A DNA stretch of 40,704 nt from Mollicutes bacterium (GTDB lineage Bacteria; Bacillota_I; Bacilli_A; RF39; UBA660). Shown in pieces: positions 5,369 to 13,585 of the stretch (position 1 is its first letter; every line of letters begins with the position of its first letter). The position numbers and the translations under genes were made by a program. The DNA is taken from contig JAAYPA010000011.1 in NCBI GenBank assembly GCA_012520055.1, positions 1 through 40,704 on the forward strand, read 5' to 3'. The notes beneath the pieces were generated by a model. That model did not search any database, was not told the DNA's origin, and saw only the letters and a list, made by a program, of their open reading frames with translations.

Positions 5369-7516
5369 ATGAAACAAAAGAACAATTGCGTTAAATTAAA
5401 CGAGTATTTTTTAATCGTAATTGTTCTTTTATTTGTCCTAATTGCGATTAAAATAGTGTATGTAGCGGTAAGTCCTACCGTAGATGGAATTGATTTAAAA
5501 GCTTTGGCGTTATCAAATCGTACTGCCGAAAAAATTATCAGATCAAAAAGAGGATCTATTTATGATGCCAATAATGAAGTTTTAGCTCAAGATGTTAAAT
5601 CTTATACAGTTATAGCTTATTTAGAAGAATCAAGAACTACTGATCCTGATAATCCCAATCATGTAATTGAGAAAGAAAGAACTTCTCAAGAATTAAGTCC
5701 TTTACTTAATATGAGTGCTGAATATATTTTAAGTCTTTTAAAGAAGGAAAACTTATATCAAGTGGAATTAGGTCCGGGAGGAAGAGGGATTACCGAGTTA
5801 AAAAAACAAGCTATTGAAGCTTTAGACTTACCGGGTATTGATTTTATTGAAGATTCTAAAAGAGATTATCCCAATGGTGATTTTGCTTCCTATATTATCG
5901 GTTATGCTAGGAGAAATGATCAAGGTCAAATAGCTGGAGAAATGGGCATTGAAGCAAAATTCGATGAAAAATTAAAGGGACAAAATGGTAAAATAATTTA
6001 CGAAAAGGACGCTTACGGCTATAAAATGGCCGGAAAACCGGAAATGGTAACTCCGGCAGTCAACGGTTATGATATTTATTTAACTCTGGATTCTAATATT
6101 CAAATGTACTTAGAAAATTTTATAATGGAATTAGAAGGATATAATATCGATTGGGCCACAATTACTATAGCTGATGCTAAAACCGGTGCTATAGTCGGAT
6201 CAGCCTCAACTCCAAGTTTTAATCCTAATATTCTCGAAATTAAAAATTATAATAACCCTTTAACTTCATATATCTATGAACCAGGTTCAACCATGAAAAT
6301 ATTTTCCTTTATGGCAGCTATTGAAAATGGCCTCTATAACGGTGAAGAAACTTATCCATCAGGTAATATTATCGTTGATAATTTTAAAATAAGTGACTGG
6401 AATACCCATGGTTGGGGAACAATTACTTTTGATACCGGTTTTACTTATTCATCTAATACTGCCGCGGTAAGATTAGCCCAAAGATTAGGTAAAGATAAAT
6501 TAACAGACTTTTATGAAAAACTAGGATTTGCTCAAAAAACTGGTATTGAACTTCCTAATGAGTATAATGGGGAAGTTGGAATGGTTTATGAATCGGAACT
6601 GGCCAGTGCTTCTTACGGTCAAGGTATTACTGCTACACCAATTCAAAATATTCAAGCATTAACTTCTTTAACCAATAATGGTATTACTATGAAACCATAT
6701 ATTATCGCTAAAATAGTTGATCCTGATACCGGAGAAGTAATTTATGAAGGTAAAAAGACCGAAGTAAATAAAGTAGCCAGTGAAGATACCATTAAAAAAA
6801 TATTAGATTTAATGGATTTAACGGTTAATACCAAAGATCCGGTAGCTACTGGTAAATCATATCATACTGATGTTTTAACTTTAGTAGGTAAAACCGGTAC
6901 CGCTCAATATACGATGGCCAATGGTAAATATACTTCCGGATCATATAAAAATATTAGATCATTTTCCGGAGTATTTCCAAAAGACAATCCAGAATATATT
7001 ATTTATTTATCTGTAAAAGATTTTGGTGGTACAGCTACTAATTTAGGTAATTTAACTAAGTCAGTTGTAGAATCCATTGCTAAATATAAGAATATTGAAG
7101 ATCGTGAATCTGATACTGATCAAACAAAAATTATTACCATAAATAACTATATTAATCGTTCTAAAAACAGTGTCATAAGTGAATTAGAATCCCAAGGTTT
7201 AATTCCGATTGTTGTTGGTAACGGAGAAACAATCATTCGTCAATCTTTGAGTAAAAATACCAAAGTAATTATTGGCACTAAAGTATTTTTAATGACTAAT
7301 GCTGCAGAATATATTATGCCGAAGGCAATTGGTTGGAATAGTAGTGAAATAATTAGCTTGGCAAATTTACTAAAAATAAAATATAATATAAGTGGTTATG
7401 GCAAGGTAAGTAATCTTTCCATTGCCCCGGGTAGTATAATTGATTTAAATAGTGTATTAGAAATTACTTTAGATAATAGGAGTGTAGTAAATGAAAAAGA
7501 AAATAAAACAAACTAA
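5369..7516 (+). CDS. Class B penicillin-binding protein (PBP2B/FtsI/SpoVD type) with C-terminal PASTA repeats
   Basis: 715 aa. N-terminal TM, SxxK (STMK), SxN (SSN) and KTG (KTGT) motifs, and two PASTA-like repeats at the C-terminus. Confidence 0.92.
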   Translation: MKQKNNCVKLNEYFLIVIVLLFVLIAIKIVYVAVSPTVDGIDLKALALSNRTAEKIIRSKRGSIYDANNEVLAQDVKSYTVIAYLEESRTTDPDNPNHVIEKERTSQELSPLLNMSAEYILSLLKKENLYQVELGPGGRGITELKKQAIEALDLPGIDFIEDSKRDYPNGDFASYIIGYARRNDQGQIAGEMGIEAKFDEKLKGQNGKIIYEKDAYGYKMAGKPEMVTPAVNGYDIYLTLDSNIQMYLENFIMELEGYNIDWATITIADAKTGAIVGSASTPSFNPNILEIKNYNNPLTSYIYEPGSTMKIFSFMAAIENGLYNGEETYPSGNIIVDNFKISDWNTHGWGTITFDTGFTYSSNTAAVRLAQRLGKDKLTDFYEKLGFAQKTGIELPNEYNGEVGMVYESELASASYGQGITATPIQNIQALTSLTNNGITMKPYIIAKIVDPDTGEVIYEGKKTEVNKVASEDTIKKILDLMDLTVNTKDPVATGKSYHTDVLTLVGKTGTAQYTMANGKYTSGSYKNIRSFSGVFPKDNPEYIIYLSVKDFGGTATNLGNLTKSVVESIAKYKNIEDRESDTDQTKIITINNYINRSKNSVISELESQGLIPIVVGNGETIIRQSLSKNTKVIIGTKVFLMTNAAEYIMPKAIGWNSSEIISLANLLKIKYNISGYGKVSNLSIAPGSIIDLNSVLEITLDNRSVVNEKENKTN

Positions 7517-8018
7517 ATCATTTTTAAATTCACCTCATGTAGTCTTGATACCTTTAATTATCATCAACTTTATGTTGCTCTATTTAGGTTATCACCTAAT
7601 GAAAACAGATGATACATATATGTTTAGTGGCACCGGAGATTATGTTAATATTTTAAATGGGGTAGTTAGTTTAAATTATGATATTAATTTATTTGAAGGC
7701 TCAAGTATAGAATATACGAAAGAAAAAGATGTATTAGTAACTGAATATAAGGCGGGTTATTATATAGTAATAGATGATACTCTTGTGCCTTTTCTTACTA
7801 AAACAAATAAAAATTCCCAAGGAGAATCATTAAAACAAATTTTAGAAGAAGAAAAAGCCTTTACTTTAACTGAACCATATACACGTAAGGAATTCTTTAC
7901 CAAAGATGTAAAAAAAGCTTTTGACAATGGATTATTCTTCATAGTAGAAGCAAAAACTAAAAATAATGAAGAAATCTTAGATAAAATAGAAATAAGTATT
8001 TCCAAGATATCGAAATGA
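7491..8018 (+). CDS. Hypothetical membrane-anchored protein
   Basis: 175 aa. AGGAG lies 8 nt upstream, there is one N-terminal TM, and the ORF overlaps the PBP stop by 26 nt. No family recognised. Confidence 0.6.
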   Translation: MKKKIKQTKSFLNSPHVVLIPLIIINFMLLYLGYHLMKTDDTYMFSGTGDYVNILNGVVSLNYDINLFEGSSIEYTKEKDVLVTEYKAGYYIVIDDTLVPFLTKTNKNSQGESLKQILEEEKAFTLTEPYTRKEFFTKDVKKAFDNGLFFIVEAKTKNNEEILDKIEISISKISK

Positions 8019-8029
8019 TATCTTTTTTT
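8004..8029 (+). terminator. Intrinsic terminator ending the dcw transcription unit
   Basis: AAGATATC (8004-8011) / GATATCTT (8017-8024) followed by a T-run. The stop codon lies in the loop. Confidence 0.65.
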
Positions 8030-8120
8030 ATGCAATTAGATAATCTAATTACGCAGATTATCAAACCTTTAATAGTATAAAGTGTAAGATATATATTTAT
8101 CTTATTTTAGCGGAGAATAG

Positions 8121-8432
8121 GTGATAAATATAAATAATGAATTTGAGATAGTTGAAAGACTTACAGCTGTAGAAGAAAGAGAAAAGATAAATAGTCACAG
8201 ATTAAATACTCATGAAAAAGAAATAAAAGATATTAGTGGTATCCTTATATCCATTAAAGAAATAACTTTAGAAATTAAATATATGCGTAAAGATATGTTT
8301 GATGTAGTGGAAAGACTAAAAGAACTGGAAAGTATACCAAAAAACCGCTGGAATGAATTAATTAAGACCATTATTACCATCATAGTGACAGCTTTAAGTA
8401 CTTTTATTTTAGTTAAATTAGGAATCAAATAG
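8121..8432 (+). CDS. XhlA-like lysis-associated membrane protein
   Basis: 103 aa with a GTG start 5 nt after GGAG. N-terminal coiled coil (VERLTAVEEREKINSHRLNTHEKEIKDI) and one C-terminal TM. Sits directly upstream of a holin. Confidence 0.55.
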   Translation: MININNEFEIVERLTAVEEREKINSHRLNTHEKEIKDISGILISIKEITLEIKYMRKDMFDVVERLKELESIPKNRWNELIKTIITIIVTALSTFILVKLGIK

Positions 8433-8437
8433 AAAGG

Positions 8438-8671
8438 GTGATTAATATCAGCAATAAAACTTATGATGTTTTAAAATTTATAGCGCAAATAGTCTTGCCC
8501 GCTTTAGCATCATTATACTTTGCATTATCTTCAATTTGGAAACTACCATATTCTGAAGAAATTGTCGGAACAATCAGTGTGATTATTACTTTTCTTGGAA
8601 CTATTTTAAAAGTATCAAGTGATACTTATTATGCATATCTTAAGAAAGAAAAGGAAGTTACTTATGAATAA
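8438..8671 (+). CDS. Phage holin (Dp-1/phage_holin_1-like)
   Basis: 77 aa. NKTYDVLKFIAQIVLPALASLYFAL...WKLPYSEEIVGT resembles the Dp-1-type holin N-terminus. Two TM segments. Confidence 0.6.
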   Translation: MINISNKTYDVLKFIAQIVLPALASLYFALSSIWKLPYSEEIVGTISVIITFLGTILKVSSDTYYAYLKKEKEVTYE

Positions 8672-8783
8672 AAAATTAACTGAGGAAGAATATGATACTT
8701 TATTAAATTTAGAAGAAATTGAAACCGAAGAAATATTTGATGATACACATCTAGCCAATCACGAGGTTACCGAAAATGATTAA
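8664..8783 (+). CDS. Possible 39-aa acidic peptide within the lysis cassette
   Basis: MNKKLTEEEYDTLLNLEEIETEEIFDDTHLANHEVTEND. Its ATG overlaps the holin stop and its stop overlaps the endolysin ATG, so all three are coupled. Too short for the ORF track. Confidence 0.3.
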   Translation: MNKKLTEEEYDTLLNLEEIETEEIFDDTHLANHEVTEND

Positions 8784-9468
8784 ATTAAAATATCCTTTAA
8801 AATATATTGCTATTACCAGTGGTTATAGATCAAAAAGCAGGCCAAATCATGCAGCTATCGATTTAGGTTGGAATAATAAGTATGGTGGTCAAAACGCACC
8901 AATTTATGCTCCGGCAAATGGTAAAGTAATATTAGTTGTGGATGGCAAAAACAATAATTTACAAAACTCCACCGATCCGGGTAATTTAATTAAAATTCAG
9001 CACTTAGATGGTTTAACCACCAGACTGATTCATTTAAAAAAAGGTAGCATTAAAGTTAAGGTTGGAGATATTGTAACTAAGGGGCAGCAGCTTGCTTTAA
9101 TGAATAGTAGTGGTTATGCCCTAGGTTCTCATCTACATTATGATGTTTGGTTAAATGGTATTAAAGTTAATCCAATAGATTATACTTATTACCATGATGA
9201 TCAAATAGTAAACTTGGATACTTTAAAAACATATCAATTAAAAAAATATCAGGAAGAAGAAGTAAATTCAGAATTTAAATTATATGATAAAGTAATTCCT
9301 ATTAACCTAATTAATTGGCAAGGTAAAAAAATAAAACAATATGATAAAGTTTATTATATAACCAAATTAGAACCGGAACGAAAAACAGTCGTTTTAAGTG
9401 CTTTAAGAAATAATAAATATCAAATATGGGCAAGATTAAATATTAATAATATTCAAAAGGTCAGTTAG
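8776..9468 (+). CDS. M23 (LytM/lysostaphin-type) peptidoglycan endopeptidase, endolysin-like, with a C-terminal binding module
   Basis: 230 aa. HxxxD (HAAIDLG) and HxH (GSHLHYDVW) zinc motifs. The C-terminal roughly 80 aa (KLYDKVIPINLINWQGKKIKQYDKVYYI) look SH3-like. Confidence 0.85.
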   Translation: MIKLKYPLKYIAITSGYRSKSRPNHAAIDLGWNNKYGGQNAPIYAPANGKVILVVDGKNNNLQNSTDPGNLIKIQHLDGLTTRLIHLKKGSIKVKVGDIVTKGQQLALMNSSGYALGSHLHYDVWLNGIKVNPIDYTYYHDDQIVNLDTLKTYQLKKYQEEEVNSEFKLYDKVIPINLINWQGKKIKQYDKVYYITKLEPERKTVVLSALRNNKYQIWARLNINNIQKVS

Positions 9469-9481
9469 ACTGACTTTTTTA
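9460..9481 (+). terminator. Intrinsic terminator of the lysis cassette
   Basis: GTCAGT tag ACTGAC followed by TTTTTT. The stop codon is in the loop. Confidence 0.7.
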
Positions 9482-9556
9482 TTTTGGATACATAAAATAA
9501 TTTAAGAGTTATTAAAATAATTCATTTGGGAATAACTAAAAATAGGAGGTATCCTT

Positions 9557-9982
9557 ATGGGAATTATTTTTGCCATCTTAGCCGGTTTACTTATGAGTAT
9601 TCAAGGAGTTTTTAATACTAGATTAATGAAATCATCCAATATGTGGATTACCAATGTCTGGGTTCATTTTAGTGCTTTTATAACTTGTATTATCATTTGG
9701 CTATTAACCGGCCCTAAAAATTTATTAACGGTATTTAATATTGAAAATAAATTGTATCTATTAGGAGGAATAATAGGTGCTTTTATTACTTTTACCGTAA
9801 TTAAAGGTATCGATAAACTTGGAGCAGCCCAAGCTACAATGATTATATTACTAGCCCAGTTATTAGTAGCTTATGTTATTGAAGTACTTGGTTTATTTGG
9901 TACTGAAAAGGTAGTATTCGAATGGACTAAACTAATGGGGGTAATACTAATGTTAGCCGGAATATTCATATTTAAAAAATAA
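9557..9982 (+). CDS. Small DMT-superfamily (DUF606/YdcZ-like) membrane protein
   Basis: 141 aa, AGGAGG RBS, 4-5 TM segments, glycine-rich helices typical of half-size DMT proteins. Confidence 0.6.
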   Translation: MGIIFAILAGLLMSIQGVFNTRLMKSSNMWITNVWVHFSAFITCIIIWLLTGPKNLLTVFNIENKLYLLGGIIGAFITFTVIKGIDKLGAAQATMIILLAQLLVAYVIEVLGLFGTEKVVFEWTKLMGVILMLAGIFIFKK

Positions 9983-9986
9983 AAAA

Positions 9987-10012
9987 AGATTGTCTAAACA
10001 ATCTATTTTATT
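9987..10012 (+). terminator. Hairpin terminator after the DMT gene
   Basis: AGATTGT ctaa ACAATCT followed by ATTTTATT. Confidence 0.5.
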
Positions 10013-10078
10013 AATTTGGTGCCAGTTAGATAAAGGTTGTTACCCCTATCTCTTAATGAAAAATATTTTTTAAATTAT

Positions 10079-10687
10079 TTACGATCTTTTTCCATCGATA
10101 AAATCTTGTTTCACAGTTTCTGGTGCAGTATTTGATAATACAACTAGATAAGATAGATCATTTTTGTCAATTATTACCGAAGCTGACCCTCTTTTTCCAG
10201 GTTGCCATACTAAAACTGCTTTGCCCTCAATAAATTCCTTTGCGCTATATTCATTCTCATTGTCATTAAATATTTCTTTTGCTTTATTTATAAATTTACT
10301 AAAAACCATATTTGTTATCTTTTTTAATAATCTATCATATATTCTTTCTTCTCTGTCTGAAGAATACGAACTTGACTCATTCTTTATTTTTCTTGTTTTT
10401 CCATCAATATTAACTTCAATGGTAGTTCCGGCATCAAAGACACTCGGTTCTGCATAGACTGATTCAAGTATATTTTCTTCATCTATCAGATACTTCTTTA
10501 TACTGTCCAAATCTTCTTGATTTAGAGTTCCGACTTTCATTATTTTATCTCCTGCTTGAAAGTCGTTAACAAATTGTATAACAGTTCCATCTTGTTTTAT
10601 AGCAATACCAGCATATCCTGGTTTATGTAATCCCCACCAATGTGATAAATAAACTAAAGCATTATTTGTTTCTTCTTTAATATTCAT
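10079..10687 (-). CDS. Hypothetical protein (202 aa)
   Basis: GGAGGA RBS 5-6 nt upstream of the ATG, and a TATAAT on the minus strand at 10714-10709. No family recognised. Confidence 0.65.
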   Translation of the reverse strand: MNIKEETNNALVYLSHWWGLHKPGYAGIAIKQDGTVIQFVNDFQAGDKIMKVGTLNQEDLDSIKKYLIDEENILESVYAEPSVFDAGTTIEVNIDGKTRKIKNESSSYSSDREERIYDRLLKKITNMVFSKFINKAKEIFNDNENEYSAKEFIEGKAVLVWQPGKRGSASVIIDKNDLSYLVVLSNTAPETVKQDFIDGKRS

Positions 10688-10780
10688 AATTTCCTCCTCT
10701 ATATTTCAATTATACTATAGTTGTTATTAAAATCATAGATTTTTTTATTTTGATTTACAAAAGCATTTATTTCTCTACAA

Positions 10781-11135
10781 GGTCATTTTATGACCTATCT
10801 CACTAGGGCATAGCCCATTCGTGAGTCACATTTTGCTTTGCCAAAATCTATAACCCCCTATGTATTTTGACACTACGTATCAAAATATGGGGGCTAAGGT
10901 TTAACACCTTAGAATCCGTTCCCCTTTATTCCGTATTGCCTTATTGCCACTGGCAATAATCCAAAACTTCATAAAGTATTGATGAAAATGTTTTCAACAT
11001 TTTCTTCCGTAGTCCGATTATCTTACTTTTTTAATATCTAGCATATTTCATTTTACAATCGGACATAGTAACTTTTTTATAAAAAAGTTATCAAAAAATC
11101 TCTCTCGGTAGGTAACATCAAAACACTGTTTTGAT
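10781..11135. other. GC-enriched array of at least 10 different perfect inverted repeats; candidate large structured RNA or ssDNA/protein-binding site
   Basis: Ten stems are read directly from the sequence; their coordinates are listed in the 10781-11135 finding. No ORF on either strand. A hand count gives 73/180 G+C over 10781-10960. Confidence 0.5.
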
Positions 11136-11159
11136 AAGTTCCCATTATATCTCTTTTTT

Positions 11160-11207
11160 ATATAAGTCAAGAATTGCACAAGCGACTTTGTCGTTCTTGA
11201 CTTATAT
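11160..11207 (-). terminator. Long hairpin 4 nt after the recombinase stop (no U-tail)
   Basis: ATATAAGTCAAGAA (11160-11173) / TTCTTGACTTATAT (11194-11207), with an inner CGAC ttt GTCG. On the minus strand its 3' arm provides TTGACT, followed 15 nt later by TATAAT (11149-11144). Confidence 0.4.
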
Positions 11208-11211
11208 TCTT

Positions 11212-12956
11212 CTACTGAACCACTATCTTGAAATCGTTTATTTCATTATCTTTCTTTATAGCATATATGAGTAATGTATTATTTCCTTTTAACTTTTCTA
11301 GTTCGCTCATTTGATTTTCACATTCGTAAGTTCTTGCTTTAACTATCCCGTTAAAATCATATACAGCTTTAGGTTTTAATTTCTTAACCAATTTATCAAA
11401 TTCTAATTCTTCATAAATTCCTTTGATTTCAAAAGTCTTACTTCGTTCATTGGCTTTTTCAATTAAATATTCACTAAAACTAAATAAGTCATTTTGTAAG
11501 AAGTCATTATAGAAGATCACTTTTTCGATCGTTATCTCATAATTGCCATCTATTTTGGCTTCAATTTCTTTGACATATTTTTGAATTATATCTCTTTTAG
11601 TTTCTCTTGTTAAGATATTCCAGATATTAGATATTTCATAGTTAGGTTGCTGTTCTCTTTTTTCAAACAAATCTTCAATATCATTATCAAATCTAAAAAG
11701 TTCTTCATCGCTTAATTTACTAATTTTATTGTTGATATTTTCTCGTTCTCTAATAATTTGATTTATTTTATTATCCAATAACTGCTTATTTAAACGATTA
11801 TCAGCAAATAGTGAGATAACATTATTTTCTTTTTTTACCAATTCATCTAATGCTTTTTCAAGTGATAACAATTCATTTTTACCTCTTAAATTAGGTATAT
11901 TGATTATGTTATCGTTAAGAATTGAAAACACACACAAGTCTTGTAATAATGGTAATAATTCTTTCTCAATCTTGCCTGTATTATATAGCTTTTTATAATC
12001 TTCACAATGTCTATTATGGCAAGTAAGATAATATGTTAATTTTATTCGTTTTCCTTTATGTTTTCTTGAAAAGTAATTACTCATAGGTTGATGACATTTA
12101 GGACATTTCACAACACCTCTAAATATGTGGATCTTCTCACCATAACCACCATTGGTATTTCTAATTATTTGGTCTTGAGCTTTTTCCCATACTTCTTTTG
12201 ATACAAGTGGTATGTGGTGATTTTCTATATAGACAACTTCTTCTTTTTTTCTTTTTGTTCTTCCCCAAGTAAGATCACCCTTATATATTGGATTTCTTAT
12301 AATGCCAATTATCGTATGTGGTCTTATACTAAAGTAATCAGTATATCTATTATCAACTTTTAACTCATCCATTATGTCTATACTAGACATACCACTTAAA
12401 TACATACTATAAATGTCTTTCACAACAAGCGAAGTAATTGGATCGGGTATCAATATACTGTTTTCATCTTTTTGATAGCCATAAGGGGCTTTATTTGGGT
12501 ATTTCCCCTGTCTTACAGCTTCTTCCATACCTCGTCTTGTTCTTCCTGCGATTTCTCGTCTTTCTCTTTGAGCAAACAACACATTCATACCATATAACAT
12601 TTCACCATTTGGTGTATTAATATCATAATTCTCATAAAGTAGGTCAATTGCACAATTATTTTCTTTACAATATTTTAAAAACCAGTGTCCATCATAACCT
12701 TCTCTTGTTAATCTATCTACTTTGATAGCACTACAACATCAATAATTCCACTTTTAATATCTTCTAACATTCGTTCCATATTTGGTCTTTTTAAATCTTT
12801 AGCACTATGCCCCGCATCATTATAAATATCTACTATTTCGTAGTTTTGTCTTTTACAATAATCTTTTAACTCTCTAACTTGTCCATCAATAGAATAACCA
12901 TAATCTCTTTGTTCTTCTGTTGATACTCTAACATATATTCCAGCTTTTAAATTCAT
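11212..12956 (-). pseudogene. Large serine recombinase (phage integrase type) interrupted by one frameshift
   Basis: The N-terminal resolvase domain (GIYVRVSTEEQ..., 12956-12717) ends at a TAG. The -1 frame continues VDRLTREGYDGH...LYGMNVLFAQRERREIAGRTRRG, then the recombinase domain, a zinc ribbon (CPKCHQ...CHNRHC) and a coiled coil down to 11212. The fused product would be about 581 aa. Confidence 0.85.
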
Positions 12957-13095
12957 TCAATCATCTCTCTTTCTCTCTCATATTTTTTAAAAGAAAAAGG
13001 CAAAGACAGTATATAGTTTATACATACTACTTCACCTTTTCAAAGAACATACTTTCGTTAATTGTCTATTTATTATAGACTTTTTTCTTTATTTG

Positions 13096-13392
13096 TCAAT
13101 GGTTTGTAGTAAGCATATTTCTGATGATCTCTTTTATTTGATTTAAAGTATAAGACTTTTTATGACTTGGTATGTAATATCTTTTACTATTTAGATTATC
13201 ACAAGCATAATGATAAATTGTTAAATTGATGTCTGGTATTTCATAAATGATTGGCTTGATCGTTTTGATATTAGTTTTCTTTATTTCTAATATTGCACCA
13301 TCAGTTATTTTGATAGTAGGTGGTCTTTCCCCTACGAAGTTTAGAAACTCCTTATCTGCTTTTAAATGTCTTATTGTTTTTAATTCCAACAT
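13096..13392 (-). CDS. Hypothetical 98-aa protein upstream of the recombinase
   Basis: GAAAGGAG RBS, same strand as the recombinase. No family recognised; a role as an excision or directionality factor is only a guess. Confidence 0.5.
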   Translation of the reverse strand: MLELKTIRHLKADKEFLNFVGERPPTIKITDGAILEIKKTNIKTIKPIIYEIPDINLTIYHYACDNLNSKRYYIPSHKKSYTLNQIKEIIRNMLTTNH

Positions 13393-13508
13393 AAAAATAG
13401 ATTGCTCCTTTCTTTAGGTAACAATCTATTTCTAACTGTTTTCTATAATTTGAATGCCACTCCCTTATAATCGTTATGATTACGAGGGGGTAGCAACTTC
13501 CTCATATC

Positions 13509-13585
13509 TGGTGACCCGTACGGGATTCGAACCCATGAATGCTGCCGTGAAAGGGCAGTGTGTTAAGCCTCTTCACCAACGGGCC
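13509..13585 (-). tRNA. tRNA-Glu (anticodon UUC), CCA encoded
   Basis: Reverse complement GGCCCGTTGGTGAAGAGGCTTAACACACTGCCCTTTCACGGCAGCATTCATGGGTTCGAATCCCGTACGGGTCACCA. Cloverleaf folds, loop CT-TTC-AC. Confidence 0.93.

What the first reader, a model, noticed from the sequence alone, without database searches (positions are those of the whole stretch)
10781..11135. GC-enriched array of at least 10 different perfect inverted repeats between the recombinase and the lysis-side genes; possibly a large structured RNA or an ssDNA/recombination site
The 524-bp gap between the recombinase stop (11212) and the start of the 10079-10687 gene has no ORF on either strand. It is far more G+C-rich than its surroundings; my hand count is 73/180 (about 40%) over 10781-10960.

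The gap is almost entirely back-to-back hairpins, each with a different sequence:
- GGTCAT/ATGACC (10781-10795)
- CTCAC..GGC/GCC..GTGAG (10799-10825)
- ATTTTG/CAAAAT (10830-10847)
- CCCCC..TATTTTGA/TCAAAATA..GGGGG (10854-10893)
- CTAAGGT/ACCTTAG (10894-10912)
- TTATTGCC/GGCAATAA (10941-10959)
- GAAAATGTT/AACATTTTC (10984-11004)
- GTCCGATT/AATCGGAC (11012-11064)
- TAACTTTTTT/AAAAAAGTTA (11069-11090)
- ATCAAAAC/GTTTTGAT (11117-11135)

On the minus strand, TTGACT-15 nt-TATAAT (11170-11144) is embedded in the recombinase's terminal hairpin and points into the array. This is compatible with a non-coding transcript of about 350 nt. Large ornate RNAs such as ROOL and GOLLD are known to sit in prophages near tRNA genes, which matches this context, but I cannot confirm any consensus by eye.

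Against a purely RNA reading, the stems are nearly all perfect Watson-Crick pairs with 3-6-nt loops and no G-U pairs. That fits DNA-level structure equally well, for example a single-strand origin, oriT, pac site or att site of the decayed element.
Basis: partly seen in the sequence, partly recalled or inferred. Interest (0 to 1): 0.75.

Follow-up and report, generated by a model that had tools for sequence, protein, structure and literature searches.

The report
Orphan conjugative transfer origin, decayed element
The hairpin array is real, but it is the DNA transfer origin (oriT) region of a small decayed mobilizable island inserted at a tRNA gene, not a large structured RNA, so it is an ordinary though neatly preserved piece of mobile DNA.

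Summary
All ten hairpins exist, and window 10781-11135 is the most hairpin-dense stretch of the window. The context and the main (RNA) reading do not hold.

The recombinase is not part of a prophage. It belongs to a 3.5-kb integrative mobilizable element (IME, window 10017-13513) inserted at the CCA end of tRNA-Glu. Relatives with an intact recombinase carry a MobV (Mob_Pre) relaxase gene just after the same hairpin region.

Window 10830-10912 (minus strand) is a pMV158/pUB110-type oriT:
- a 5-bp G+C outer stem, an inner A+T stem and an ATA bulge in the 3' arm;
- then TAGGGGG/TTA, against the mapped nick sites TAGTGTG/TTA (pMV158) and TAGTGCG/TTA (IMESag-rpsI).

The block is conserved with compensatory changes in the 13 distinct sequences counted. 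Its only plasmid matches are 25 mobilizable Bacillus plasmids; in both examined, it lies just upstream of a relaxase gene.

In the window the relaxase gene is missing, replaced by an orphan 202-aa gene, and the recombinase is frameshifted. This is therefore an orphan oriT.

My best guess is a single-strand origin, which is unproven. There is no Rfam hit. Verdict: new member of a known kind.

The parts
10017..13513 (-). Whole integrative mobilizable element (about 3.5 kb). Reading the minus strand: small ORF, recombinase, hairpin array, oriT, orphan gene, right end.
   Evidence: blastn places window 13513->10830 on L009 5444-8131 at 91% identity, and window 10057->10017 on L009 11327-11368 at 98%. 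Junction sequences were compared in window, L009, L011, L014 and L015.
13509..13585 (-). tRNA-Glu(TTC). Its CCA 3' end is the left junction (attL) of the element.
   Evidence: ARAGORN and Rfam. Homology to L009 starts at 13513. Related elements abut the CCA ends of tRNA-Glu(CTC), tRNA-Gly(GCC) and tRNA-His(GTG) in L011, L014 and L015.
13487..13508 (-). Left terminal sequence GATATGAGGAAGTTGCTACCCC. It contains one arm of the terminal inverted repeat (GTTGCTACCCC).
   Evidence: Conserved directly after the tRNA CCA in window, L009, L011, L014 and L015.
10017..10046 (-). Right terminal sequence GGGGTAACAACCTTTATCTAACTGGCACCA (attR). It ends in a repeat of the tRNA-like CACCA.
   Evidence: 98% identical to the L009 right end, and also present in L014. 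It is followed by the likely tRNA-operon terminator (AGATTGTttagACAATCT plus a T run).
13096..13392 (-). 98-aa ORF that always precedes this recombinase. No known family.
   Evidence: ORFs of 100-102 aa occupy the same position in L009-L015. No Pfam, NCBIfam, PHROG or PADLOC hit.
11212..12956 (-). Large serine recombinase gene, inactivated by a 1-nt deletion. It is called as two ORFs: 79 aa (12717-12956) and 462 aa (11212-12600).
   Evidence: Pfam Resolvase on the short ORF and Recombinase on the long one. Intact 581-582-aa homologues exist at 72-95% identity. The deletion is seen against L009 and the same split is present in contig L003.
11160..11207 (-). D1: large hairpin just after the recombinase stop, with a 14-bp outer stem and a CGAC/GTCG inner stem. 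It is the first unit of the oriT-linked array.
   Evidence: the repeat finder I2. Compensatory changes occur in the L020 group (A-T to T-A) and in L033 (T-A to C-G; CGAC/GTCG to CAAC/GTTG). No T run follows it, so it is not scored as a terminator.
11117..11135 (-). D2: hairpin ATCAAAAC/GTTTTGAT.
   Evidence: The stem is kept while the loop changes (AGT, ATC, or extended in the L020 group).
11093..11112 (-). Conserved unpaired motif CCTACCGAGAGAGATTTTTT. It resembles the RSB motif of plasmid single-strand origins (TTATGCCGAGAAAATTT).
   Evidence: CCGAG is invariant and the flanking CC(T/G)ACCGAG nearly so in window, L009, L020, L045, L040 and L033. The RSB sequence comes from PMC4598088. This is a resemblance only.
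11069..11090 (-). D3: perfect palindrome TAACTTTTTTA/TAAAAAAGTTA.
   Evidence: The stem is conserved and the centre varies. Together with its flanks it gives the best, though not significant, local alignment to pUB110 about 190 nt upstream of its oriT.
11012..11064 (-). D4: long-range stem GTCCGATT/AATCGGAC enclosing a variable 37-nt loop.
   Evidence: I14. The stems are conserved while the loop diverges strongly between window, L009 and the L020 group.
10962..11004 (-). D5 hairpin GAAAATGTT/AACATTTTC (10984-11004) plus the following ATCAATACTTTATGAAGTTTTG. This 43-mer is identical in all long-type relatives.
   Evidence: In L049 the inner stem is replaced (GTT/AAC becomes TAATGC/GCATTA) while the base GAAAAT/ATTTTC is kept.
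10924..10976 (-). D6: imperfect 26-nt-arm palindrome with the core hairpin TTATTGCCA/TGGCAATAA (10941-10959).
   Evidence: I1, I17. L009 shows C-G to T-A plus one G.T. The L020 group has a re-built hairpin AATTGC/GCAATT. L040 has G.T pairs that work only on the minus strand.
10894..10912 (-). H1: hairpin CTAAGGT/ACCTTAG directly 5' of the oriT hairpin.
   Evidence: Two of its seven pairs show compensatory changes across 13 sequences: C-G/A-U/U-G at the base and U-A/C-G at the top. In L016-type relatives it is replaced by GCCTCGCAGAGC, identical to pUB110.
10854..10893 (-). oriT main hairpin, the analogue of pMV158 IR1/IR3. It has an outer stem CCCCC/GGGGG, an inner stem TATTTTGATAC/GTGTCAAAATA, and a CATA bulge in the 3' arm.
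   Evidence: Architecture and sequence were compared with the pMV158 oriT GCACACACTTTATGAATATAAAGTATAGTGTG/TTATACTTTA (PMC3105389; PMC5863519). 100% and 99.2% of cells are paired, with one compensatory pair (A-U in 6 sequences, U-A in 7). Matches occur in Bacillus MOBV plasmids.
10853..10854 (-). Predicted nick site: between G10854 and T10853 on the minus strand, within TAGGGGG/TTATAG.
   Evidence: By analogy with the mapped nick sites TAGTGTG/TTA (pMV158) and TAGTGCG/TTA (IMESag-rpsI) (PMC5090054). The position is inferred, not shown.
10839..10872 (-). IR2 analogue: an imperfect inverted repeat whose loop (GGGGGT) contains the predicted nick.
   Evidence: the repeat finder I6: arms 10839-10852 and 10859-10872, 79% complementary. 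Compare pMV158 IR2, TAAAGTATAgtgtg/tTATACTTTA.
10830..10847 (-). H3: hairpin ATTTTG/CAAAAT 3' of the nick. It is the last conserved unit; homology with mob-bearing elements stops right after it.
   Evidence: The stem is invariant in 13 sequences while the loop varies by substitutions and 1-nt indels. It is extended by an extra stem in L049. Homology ends at 10830.
10780..10825 (-). Two further hairpins: CTCAC..GTGAG with GGGC/GCCC inside, and AGGTCAT/ATGACCT. They are not part of the oriT module and are shared only with L033, which has different flanks.
   Evidence: window 10835-10762 matches L033 11616-11689 at 92%. Function unknown.
10079..10687 (-). 202-aa orphan gene occupying the place where relatives carry the relaxase gene. 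It would be the first gene after the predicted nick.
   Evidence: No family in Pfam, NCBIfam, PHROGs or PADLOC. Only two homologue clusters in 5.8 billion proteins. No Mob homologue is found anywhere in the window.

Best explanation
**What it is.** The array is the transfer-origin region of a small, decayed integrative mobilizable element (IME).

**The oriT.** The core (window 10830-10912, minus strand) is an oriT of the pMV158/pUB110 (MOBV) type.
- In an active relative, the MobV relaxase would bind the extruded hairpin.
- It would cut the minus strand after GGGGG, predicted between 10854 and 10853.
- It would then pilot that strand, 5' end first, into a recipient through a helper element's mating pore.

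**The upstream array.**
- Most likely it works as folded single-stranded DNA.
- It would act as a single-strand origin that primes complementary-strand synthesis after transfer, like ssoU upstream of the pMV158/pUB110 oriT.

**State in this window.** The relaxase gene has been replaced by an orphan gene and the recombinase carries a frameshift. The oriT is therefore an orphan, usable at best in trans.

**Shown and inferred.**
- Shown: homology and structure of the oriT, its linkage to relaxase genes in relatives, and the element's borders.
- Inferred: the exact nick position, which strand is transferred, and the single-strand-origin role.
For: **1. Relatives carry a relaxase next to the array.** Intact homologues of the recombinase (P0003, 95% identity) are followed, after the same hairpin region, by a Mob_Pre/MobV relaxase gene. 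That relaxase has the HxxR and HxDE..PHxH motifs. The window aligns to that locus at 91% from 13513 to 10830.

**2. The oriT matches known MOBV origins.**
- Window minus strand: G CCCCC a TATTTTGATAC gta GTGTCAAAATA cata GGGGG/TTATAGATTTT.
- pMV158 oriT: GCACAC ACTTTAT gaat ATAAAGT ata GTGTG/TTATACTTTA (PMC3105389).
- Shared features are a 5-bp outer stem, an inner A+T stem, an ATA bulge in the 3' arm, the hairpin ending at the nick, and a second inverted repeat spanning the nick.
- Mapped nick sites are TAGTGTG/TTA and TAGTGCG/TTA (PMC5090054); here it is TAGGGGG/TTA.

**3. Independent links to plasmid origins.**
- L016-type relatives carry GCCTCGCAGAGC directly 5' of the hairpin, identical to pUB110.
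- blastn of the 100-nt block against 72,556 plasmids hits only 25 small Bacillus plasmids, all typed mobilizable. Both that I fetched are typed MOBV.
- In NZ_CP128154.1 the match lies 74 nt upstream of the relaxase gene on the same strand. In pBMB13 it also lies just upstream of the relaxase gene.
- A covariance model built only from the IME family finds the Bacillus plasmid origins (E=5e-4 and 5e-3). Its joint-best, non-significant match in the pUB110 locus (E=0.85) covers the known oriT.

**4. The oriT structure is under selection.** In 13 distinct sequences, 98.9% of cells are paired and 3 pairs show compensatory changes. Slid controls give 32-54% pairing.

**5. The distal array travels with the oriT.** It is 83% identical in L020, L037, L040 and L045, and the L020 recombinase is only 31% identical in protein; L037, L040 and L045 also lack DNA-level similarity to the window recombinase gene.
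- It shows compensatory and structure-preserving replacements in D1, D5 and D6.
- Its G.T pairs work only on the minus strand.

**6. Precedent for the layout.** pMV158 has ssoU and ssoA flanking its mobilization cassette (PMC5737340), and deleting ssoU lowers interspecies transfer 300-1000-fold (PMC4595007). IMESag-rpsI has oriT-mob-ssoA.

**7. The att sites are elsewhere.** The element's ends are at the tRNA-Glu CCA and at 10017, so the gap is not an att site.
Against: **On the oriT:**
- No relaxase gene exists in the window, so activity here cannot be assumed.
- The nick motif differs from mapped sites at two positions (GGGGG against GTGTG or GTGCG), and no cleavage has been shown.
- The covariance-model match to pUB110 itself is not significant (E=0.85).

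**On the distal array as a single-strand origin:**
- No significant similarity to any plasmid.
- The best alignment to the pUB110 upstream region has z=2.2 only.
- The CS-6 motif TAGCGT is absent, and the RSB resemblance is limited to CCGAG plus an A/T run.
- Covariation cannot tell folded ssDNA from RNA.
- Only about three independent lineages carry the full array.
- Short-type relatives (L016-L019) lack hairpins D1-D6.
Confidence: 0.8

Rival explanations
1. The distal hairpins, or the whole array, are a structured RNA. It would be either a long 5' leader that controls relaxase expression or a free non-coding RNA transcribed on the minus strand from near 11144.
For: - The stems show compensatory changes and G.U-compatible pairs on the minus strand.
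- The fold z-score as RNA is -7.8.
- A TTGACT..TATAAT pair exists upstream.
- The array lies upstream of mob on its sense strand in L009 and L020.
- The CCCCC arm could in principle pair with the GGGGG of the mob ribosome-binding site.
Against: - No Rfam match even at E<=10.
- The promoter spacer is 15 nt here and 13 nt in the L020 group, with a changed -10. Promoter-like sites occur only at chance level and there are no terminators.
- The same relaxase gene works with no D1-D6 array in L016-L019.
- The array is retained in the window and part of it in L033, where mob is gone.
- In L014 and L015, a hairpin-rich stretch again precedes an oriT that is far from mob and on the opposite strand. This ties such arrays to oriT orientation rather than to mob transcription.
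Confidence: 0.12
2. The distal palindromes are double-stranded binding sites for dimeric proteins, such as relaxosome accessory factors or a repressor of the recombinase or mob genes. They would not be a priming signal.
For: - Most stems are perfect palindromes with very short loops (D3 has a 0-nt loop; D2 and D6 have 1-nt loops). Short loops are poor for hairpin extrusion and typical of operators.
- A 43-mer is invariant across 83%-identical relatives.
- MobM itself binds its oriT as dsDNA to repress its own gene (PMC5863519).
Against: - Stem sequences are replaced while pairing is kept (D1 in L033 and L020, D5 in L049, D6 in the L020 group). That is not expected for a fixed protein recognition sequence.
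- Non-Watson-Crick positions are mostly G.T on one strand.
- No candidate DNA-binding gene is consistently linked. The 98-aa ORF goes with the recombinase type, not with the array.
Confidence: 0.12
3. The gap holds the recombinase's own attachment or recombination site. An example would be the ~50-bp imperfect palindrome at 10924-10976, read as an attP left over from a decayed prophage.
For: The arms at 10924-10949 and 10951-10976 form a 26-nt, 77%-complementary dyad of the size typical of serine-integrase att sites. The lysis genes and the recombinase gene converge on this gap, the layout seen around attP in circular temperate phage genomes.
Against: - The element's real ends were found. They are the tRNA CCA on one side and ..CTGGCACCA at 10017 on the other, with a terminal inverted repeat. 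The same ends occur in four other loci at different tRNAs.
- The array co-occurs with recombinases only 31% identical.
- The holin and peptidase genes lie outside the element.
Confidence: 0.02
4. The array is a pile-up of transcription terminators or insulators, or a chance product of A+T-rich sequence, with no specific function.
For: It lies between two co-directional genes. D1 directly follows a stop codon.
Against: - No terminator-like site was found, since no T run follows any stem.
- Hairpin density is far beyond shuffles.
- The array is conserved with covariation across elements.
Confidence: 0.03

Closest known systems
oriT of pMV158 / pUB110 (MOBV1 family; MobM relaxase)
   Same: - Three overlapping inverted repeats.
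- A 5-bp G+C outer stem, an inner A+T stem and an ATA bulge in the 3' arm.
- The hairpin ends at the nick, and the TAG.G.G/TTATA core is shared.
- It lies just upstream of a MobV relaxase gene on its sense strand (in relatives).
- GCCTCGCAGAGC lies 5' of the hairpin in L016-type relatives.
   Different: - The outer stem is CCCCC/GGGGG rather than CACAC/GTGTG.
- The inner stem is longer (8-11 bp) and has a different sequence.
- There is an extra conserved hairpin 3' of the nick.
- The cognate relaxase is a divergent Mob_Pre (Pfam E=3e-13) with a ~50-residue N-terminal extension or insertion.
- It sits in an integrated element rather than a plasmid, and in this window has no relaxase.
MOBV origins of small Bacillus cereus-group plasmids (e.g. 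NZ_CP128154.1, pBMB13)
   Same: These are the closest sequence matches. The inner hairpin ATTTTGATACGTAGTGTCAAAAT is nearly identical, followed by TATAGGG/TTAC, and lies about 70-80 nt upstream of a 'plasmid recombination protein' gene.
   Different: The outer stem is CCCTATA/TATAGGG. The flanks are unrelated. As far as I checked, these origins are annotated only by gene context and have not been mapped experimentally.
IMESag-rpsI mobilization module (oriT-mobSag-ssoA) of Streptococcus agalactiae
   Same: An integrated mobilizable element carrying a pMV158-like oriT with IR1-IR3. Its G/T nick is experimentally mapped, and it has a MobV relaxase and an associated lagging-strand origin (PMC5090054).
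   Different: It has a tyrosine integrase and inserts at rpsI. Its ssoA lies downstream of mob and has recognisable RSB/CS-6-type features. Here the integrase is a serine recombinase at tRNA CCA ends, and the candidate sso is upstream of oriT and of no recognised type.
Relaxase-less integrative elements with only an oriT (MGIs; 'iOriTs')
   Same: An integrated element with recombinase, att sites and an oriT but no relaxase, which would depend on relaxases of related elements (PMC5704250; bioRxiv 10.64898/2026.01.13.699239).
   Different: Here the relaxase-less state is plainly secondary: close relatives have mob at the same place. The recombinase is also broken, so the element is probably inert rather than a dedicated hitcher.
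Tn4451/Tn4453 of clostridia (serine recombinase TnpX plus Mob/Pre-family TnpZ acting at an RSA site)
   Same: A small Firmicute IME combining a large serine recombinase with a Mob/Pre relaxase and its upstream origin. The review PMC5704250 names Tn4451 as the classic serine-recombinase IME; the TnpZ/RSA details are from my own knowledge.
   Different: I made no sequence comparison. Tn4451 has low target specificity and carries catP, whereas the present family targets tRNA 3' ends.
Single-strand origins ssoU (pUB110/pMV158) and sso1 of ICEBs1
   Same: A hairpin-rich, 200-340-nt non-coding stretch beside the mobilization genes, on the transferred strand. The literature states that function depends more on structure than on sequence (PMC4595007; PMC5737340).
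   Different: There is no significant sequence similarity, no CS-6, and only a partial RSB-like motif. Function is untested.

Membership tests
MOBV (pMV158-type) origin of transfer | Nick-region core 5'-TAGTG(T/C)G/TTA-3' on the relaxase-sense strand | tested here: met
   The window minus strand reads TAGGGGG/TTATAG at 10860-10848. TAG.G.G/TTA is shared with both mapped sites (PMC5090054). The two differing positions include the one that already varies between pMV158 and IMESag-rpsI. The 13-nt pattern ATAGKGKGTTATA occurs once in the window, with no mismatch; a scan allowing one mismatch expects 0.41 by chance.
MOBV (pMV158-type) origin of transfer | Three partly overlapping inverted repeats: an inner hairpin (IR1), its extension by an outer stem with a bulge in the 3' arm ending at the nick (IR3), and a repeat spanning the nick (IR2) | tested here: met
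   - Inner stem: 10863-10873 with 10877-10887.
- Outer stem: CCCCC/GGGGG, 10889-10893 with 10854-10858, with a CATA bulge.
- IR2 analogue: 10839-10852 with 10859-10872.
- Compared with PMC5863519 and PMC3105389.
MOBV (pMV158-type) origin of transfer | Located just upstream of, and on the sense strand of, a MobV (Mob_Pre, PF01076) relaxase gene | tested here: inconclusive
   Met in the relatives L009, L010, L016-L020 and others, and in Bacillus plasmid NZ_CP128154.1. Not met in the window itself, where no mob gene exists. L014 and L015 show that a related oriT can sit far from mob.
MOBV (pMV158-type) origin of transfer | Hairpin conserved by selection (pairing kept through substitutions) | tested here: met
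   On alignment A5, 98.9% of cells are paired, 3 pairs carry double changes (12 cells), and 0 of 500 shuffles reach the observed covariation score. Slid controls give 32-54% pairing.
MOBV (pMV158-type) origin of transfer | Site-specific cleavage by the cognate relaxase and mobilization in vivo | not testable with these tools
   Needs nicking and mating assays.
Single-strand origin (ssoA / ssoU type) | Conserved RSB motif (5'-TTATGCCGAGAAAATTT-3') | tested here: inconclusive
   The window has CCTACCGAGAGAGATTTTTT (11112-11093, minus strand) and L009 has CCGAGAAAGATTTT. The CCGAG core is invariant in six relatives. The RSB sequence is from PMC4598088. This is a partial match only.
Single-strand origin (ssoA / ssoU type) | CS-6 (5'-TAGCGT-3') in a terminal loop downstream of RSB | tested here: not met
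   The loop of D4, about 67 nt downstream, reads ATGCTAGA here, ACGATAGG in L009 and ACGATAAT in L020. None contains TAGCGT.
Single-strand origin (ssoA / ssoU type) | Sequence similarity to a known sso | tested here: not met
   blastn against plasmids finds nothing at E<=1e-5 and only chance-level hits at E>=1. The best local alignment to the pUB110 region upstream of oriT scores 27, against 21 +/- 2.7 in shuffles.
Single-strand origin (ssoA / ssoU type) | Extensive secondary structure of one strand, placed beside the mobilization cassette on the transferred strand | tested here: met
   The DNA fold z-score is -9.5 on the minus strand. The array is contiguous with and 5' of the oriT in every relative that has it. 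Placement follows the pMV158 precedent (PMC5737340). Strand specificity is only hinted at by G.T pairs.
Single-strand origin (ssoA / ssoU type) | Orientation-dependent conversion of ssDNA to dsDNA | not testable with these tools
   Needs the assays used for ICEBs1 sso1 (PMC4595007).
Large ornate RNAs (ROOL, GOLLD, HEARO, raiA, OLE) and any other Rfam family | Match to the family covariance model | tested here: not met
   Only tRNAs reach gathering scores in the window. On 10600-11300 at E<=10 there are only six chance-level hits to unrelated small-RNA models, all far below their thresholds.
Integrative mobilizable element (IME) | Own site-specific recombinase and att sites with short direct repeats at the ends | tested here: met
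   The recombinase is a large serine recombinase, though frameshifted. The ends and the CACCA repeat are identified and recur at other tRNAs.
Integrative mobilizable element (IME) | Own relaxase gene (canonical IME) | tested here: not met
   Absent from the window and present in close relatives. The window copy therefore fits the relaxase-less (MGI / iOriT-like) or decayed category.
Serine-integrase att site inside the gap | Recombination crossover located in the gap | tested here: not met
   The junctions lie at 13509-13513 and 10017-10025, not in 10688-11211.

The most novel reading that the evidence does not exclude
The ~290-nt hairpin array upstream of the oriT (window 10924-11207) could be a previously undescribed class of single-strand origin or ssDNA priming signal. 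It would be a portable partner of MOBV-type origins in integrated elements of uncultured low-G+C Bacilli and Mycoplasmatota. At least two interchangeable versions appear to exist: the D1-D6 array, and the GTGGCACG..GTGGCGATAG module of L014-L019, L033 and L049. If so, it would be a sequence-independent, structure-defined sso family found by comparative genomics.
Probability: 0.3. Interest if true: 0.45.

Novelty: new member of a known kind. Interest (0 to 1): 0.3.

Why it matters
**Annotation.** The result turns an apparent 'mystery structured region in a prophage' into a clean annotation. It is an orphan MOBV-type oriT inside a 3.5-kb serine-recombinase element at a tRNA CCA end.

**A reusable signature.** The pattern CCCCC-hairpin-CATAGGGGG/TTATAG, together with covariance model R1, can flag this oriT family in metagenomes. 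Such origins are normally invisible to gene-based annotation.

**Modular exchange.** One oriT block is combined with three unrelated serine recombinases, with or without its relaxase gene, and with different cargo. (Close relatives of the window's recombinase, L011-L013, carry a MobA/VirD2-type relaxase instead, but I did not look for their oriT.) Relaxase-less copies illustrate how 'oriT-only' hitchers can arise.

**Open question.** Whether integrated mobilizable elements carry dedicated single-strand origins remains unsettled. The distal array is a concrete, testable candidate.

Tried and rejected
- **Rfam.** Searched the whole window at gathering thresholds and the region at E<=10. Only tRNAs or chance hits came back.
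- **blastn of the 524-nt gap.** No match in phages or plasmids. Relaxing to E<=10 for the distal array gave only chance hits on the A/T palindrome.
- **REP-like dispersed repeats.** None in the window.
- **Link to the downstream 202-aa gene.** The protein has only two homologue clusters, and the distant one (P0002) sits next to topA without any such array. Rejected.
- **Recombinase relatives in viral contigs.** One remote hit, not informative. An oriT 20-mer search in viral contigs found one locus of the same family (L026).
- **Prophage attP reading.** Considered for the 10924-10976 palindrome and rejected once the true element ends were found.
- **Promoter and terminator scan.** Chance level for promoters and zero terminators.
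- **Similarity of the array to pUB110 ssoU.** The best alignment is suggestive in position and strand but not significant.
- **Primary sso papers.** I tried to read PMC27924, PMC2632109, PMC210059 and PMC106852 for RSB, CS-6 and ssoU details. None is held, and pMV158 NC_010096.1 is not in the plasmid collection. RSB and CS-6 were taken from PMC4598088 instead.
- **Metagenome 18-mer search.** Of the 33 stretches hit, 12 are true family members and the rest are chance hits in unrelated coding sequence.
- **The relaxase start called in L009.** The GTG at L009 8088 lies inside the oriT hairpin. I rejected it as the true start because 1-2-nt indels between relatives break that frame and the Pfam domain begins near residue 53.


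Full report
**1. Observation**

- All ten inverted repeats are at the stated positions.
- G+C over 10781-10960 is 73/180, and 33.8% over the whole feature against 27.3% for the window.
- Perfect stems of at least 6 bp cover 39.7% of 10781-11135. In 1000 dinucleotide shuffles the figure is 5.1% +/- 4.1%, with a maximum of 24%. No other 355-nt stretch of the window reaches this value.
- Folding energies are far below shuffles on both strands. As RNA, z is -7.8 and -7.5. As DNA, z is -9.5 and -9.0.
- The palindromes are not repeated elsewhere in the window.

**2. What the neighbourhood really is**

The recombinase is a large serine recombinase split by a frameshift. The Resolvase domain lies on a 79-aa ORF and the Recombinase and zinc-ribbon domains on a 462-aa ORF. 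Compared with its closest intact relative, the cause is a 1-nt deletion.

A protein search found intact 581-582-aa homologues at 72-95% identity in metagenomes and in 'Bacilli bacterium' MAGs. Their loci share a layout: a ~100-aa ORF, then the recombinase, then a relaxase gene.
- L009, L010, L014 and L015 carry Mob_Pre/MobV (PF01076).
- L011-L013 carry a MobA/VirD2-like relaxase.

These are integrative mobilizable elements (IMEs), not prophages.

The window aligns to L009 at 91% from 13513 down to 10830. A further 42 nt (10057-10017) match the far end of the L009 element at 98%.

The junctions are clear.
- On the minus strand the element starts directly after the CCA of tRNA-Glu (..GGGTCACCA|GATATGAGGAAGTTGCTACCCC..).
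- It ends with ..GGGGTAACAACCTTTATCTAACTGGCACCA| at 10017.
- A stem-loop with a T run follows, which looks like the original tRNA-operon terminator.

The same ends flank relatives at tRNA-Glu(CTC), tRNA-Gly(GCC) and tRNA-His(GTG). The element is therefore window 10017-13513. The holin, M23 peptidase and transporter genes to the left are outside it.

**3. The core of the array is an oriT**

In L009 and L010 the 340-nt spacer between the recombinase and mob is the homologue of window 11211-10873. Homology continues to 10830 and then stops.

A genome-collection scan with the L009 relaxase, plus an exact-pattern scan of metagenomes, gave further loci. About 90 nt are shared by all of them. Read on the window's minus strand these are:
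- hairpin H1 (CTAAGGT/ACCTTAG);
- a long hairpin, CCCCC-a-TATTTTGATAC-gta-GTGTCAAAATA-cata-GGGGG;
- the sequence TTATAG;
- hairpin H3 (ATTTTG/CAAAAT).

In mob-bearing loci a ribosome-binding site (AAAGAAAGGGGGA) and the relaxase gene follow.

This is the architecture of the pMV158 oriT, GCACACACTTTATGAATATAAAGTATAGTGTG/TTATACTTTA (PMC3105389). Shared features are (PMC5863519; the repeat finder I6):
- a 5-bp outer stem and an inner A+T stem;
- an ATA bulge in the 3' arm;
- a nick at the 3' end of that arm;
- a second inverted repeat spanning the nick.

The mapped nick sites are TAGTGTG/TTA in pMV158 and TAGTGCG/TTA in IMESag-rpsI (PMC5090054). The window has TAGGGGG/TTA.

Three independent links support true homology.
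- L016-type relatives have GCCTCGCAGAGC immediately 5' of the hairpin, exactly as in pUB110.
- blastn of the 100-nt block against 72,556 plasmids returns only 25 small Bacillus plasmids, all typed mobilizable. Both that I fetched are typed MOBV. In NZ_CP128154.1 the match lies 74 nt upstream of the relaxase gene on the same strand, and in pBMB13 it is likewise just upstream.
- A covariance model built only from the IME family recovers those plasmid origins (E=5e-4 and 5e-3). Its joint-best, non-significant match in the pUB110 locus (E=0.85) covers the known oriT.

Across 13 distinct sequences 98.9% of pair cells are paired. Three pairs carry compensatory double changes, for example GA..TC to GT..AC in the inner stem. 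Slid controls fall to 32-54%. An invariant T.G pair and further G.T pairs work only on the minus strand. That is the relaxase-sense strand, which in pMV158 is the nicked and transferred strand.

The GTG start called for the L009 relaxase lies inside the hairpin and is probably wrong.
- 1-2-nt indels between relatives break that frame.
- The Pfam domain starts near residue 53.

**4. State of the window copy**

Homology to mob-bearing loci ends right after H3, at 10830. Two unrelated hairpins follow (10780-10825), shared only with L033, whose flanks differ. Then comes a 202-aa gene with no known family and only two homologue clusters.

No relaxase homologue exists in the window. With the recombinase also frameshifted, this copy is an orphan oriT in a decayed element. 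At best it could be mobilized and excised in trans by relatives. Relaxase-less integrative elements are a recognised category (PMC5704250; bioRxiv 10.64898/2026.01.13.699239).

**5. The distal hairpins**

Window 10924-11207 holds hairpins D1-D6 and a conserved unpaired motif, CCTACCGAG..ATTTTTT. This stretch is present only in some relatives: L009/L010, L020, L037, L040 and L045. Parts of it occur in L033 and L049.

Together with the oriT it is 83% identical in the L020 group. The L020 recombinase is only 31% identical in protein, and none of that group matches the window's recombinase gene at the DNA level. The array therefore belongs with the oriT, not with the recombinase.

Pairing is preserved through change.
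- D1 shows three compensatory events.
- The inner stem of D5 is replaced in L049.
- D6 is rebuilt in the L020 group.
- The D4 stems are kept around a diverged loop.

A 43-mer is invariant. There are no terminators, and promoter-like sites occur only at chance level.

The L016-L019 relatives lack D1-D6 but have another short module (GTGGCACG..GTGGCGATAG). The same module precedes a pMV158-identical oriT (TAGTGTG/TTAC) in L014 and L015, where it lies on the strand opposite to mob and more than 2 kb away from it. Hairpin-rich modules thus sit 5' of the nick whatever the orientation of mob. This argues against a mob leader RNA.

In pMV158 the mobilization cassette is flanked by the lagging-strand origins ssoU and ssoA, and ssoU matters for interspecies transfer (PMC5737340; PMC4595007). 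IMESag-rpsI has oriT-mob-ssoA. Function of an sso is said to depend on structure more than on sequence.

My best reading is therefore that the distal array is a single-strand origin acting on the transferred strand. This is an inference.
- The RSB resemblance is partial and CS-6 is absent.
- No known sso is significantly similar.
- Covariation cannot separate ssDNA from RNA.

I put this sub-claim at about 0.4. The oriT call itself is near 0.9.

**6. Comparison and novelty**

The feature is a new member of a known kind: a MOBV-type oriT, in the setting of a serine-recombinase IME. It is not a member of any Rfam family and is not an att site.

Modestly new elements are:
- this oriT subtype (CCCCC/GGGGG outer stem, extra hairpin H3);
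- its modular pairing with three unrelated serine recombinases, with or without its relaxase gene, and with different cargo;
- the candidate sso array;
- the family's insertion at the CCA ends of several different tRNA genes, whereas a review states that serine-recombinase IMEs usually insert within genes (PMC5704250).

**7. Verdict**

Interest is low to moderate, at 0.3.

Noticed in passing
window 13509-13513 and 10017-10046; L011 1000-1090; L014 5397-5480 and 11740-11790; L015 5407-5490: This serine-recombinase element family sits exactly at the CCA 3' end of different tRNA genes: Glu-TTC, Glu-CTC, Gly-GCC and His-GTG. The right end is constant (..CTGGC(A/T)CCA) and there is a terminal inverted repeat GTTGCTACCCC/GGGGTAACAAC. 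A review says serine-recombinase IMEs usually insert inside genes, so targeting the CCA end may be unusual.
   Followed up: partly
L015 11440-11528 (minus strand); L014 11142-11231 (minus strand): These relatives carry a second-type oriT with the exact pMV158 nick motif (GCACAC..TAGTGTG/TTAC). It is on the strand opposite to their MobV gene and more than 2 kb downstream of it, and it is preceded by its own hairpin-rich stretch.
   Followed up: partly
L009 8088-8170 (likewise L016-L020): The relaxase gene is called from a GTG that lies inside the oriT hairpin. The conserved TTATAGAAG after the ribosome-binding site AAAGGGGGA suggests a non-canonical ATA or ATT start codon instead.
   Followed up: partly
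window 10079-10687 (minus strand): A 202-aa orphan protein is the first gene after the predicted nick (the leading position) and replaces the relaxase gene. There are only two homologue clusters in 5.8 billion proteins, and no Pfam, NCBIfam, PHROG or PADLOC hit. The distant homologue lies next to topA.
   Followed up: partly
window 10780-10825; L033 11616-11689: Two hairpins (CTCAC..GTGAG and AGGTCAT/ATGACCT) form a ~60-nt module that follows the oriT in the window and in L033. The upstream and downstream sequences of those two loci differ. Function unknown.
   Followed up: partly
L020 2786-2995: A 69-aa ORF is inserted between the oriT and the relaxase gene, with a duplicated ribosome-binding region. 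The insertion is at almost the same point where the window's homology breaks.
   Followed up: no
L011 3377-5586 (also L012, L013): Elements with an 86%-identical recombinase carry a MobA/VirD2-like relaxase and a 109-aa partner instead of MobV, after a 569-nt spacer that I did not analyse.
   Followed up: no
L001, L002, L004-L006 (contig ends at window ~11070-11235): Five independent metagenome contigs that carry the orphan gene all end inside the hairpin array or at the 3' end of the recombinase. This suggests assembly breaks caused by palindromes or by multiple variants of this module in the community.
   Followed up: no
window 7491-9982: A Dp-1-type holin (PF16938), an M23 peptidase, small ORFs and a YdcZ/EamA transporter lie between the cell-division cluster (mraZ..PBP) and the tRNA operon. 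They are outside the mobilizable element, and their origin (phage remnant or host genes) was not examined.
   Followed up: no
window 9987-10004: A stem-loop AGATTGTttagACAATCT followed by a T run lies directly after the element's right end. It is probably the original terminator of the tRNA-Ile/tRNA-Glu operon, displaced 3.5 kb by the insertion.
   Followed up: no
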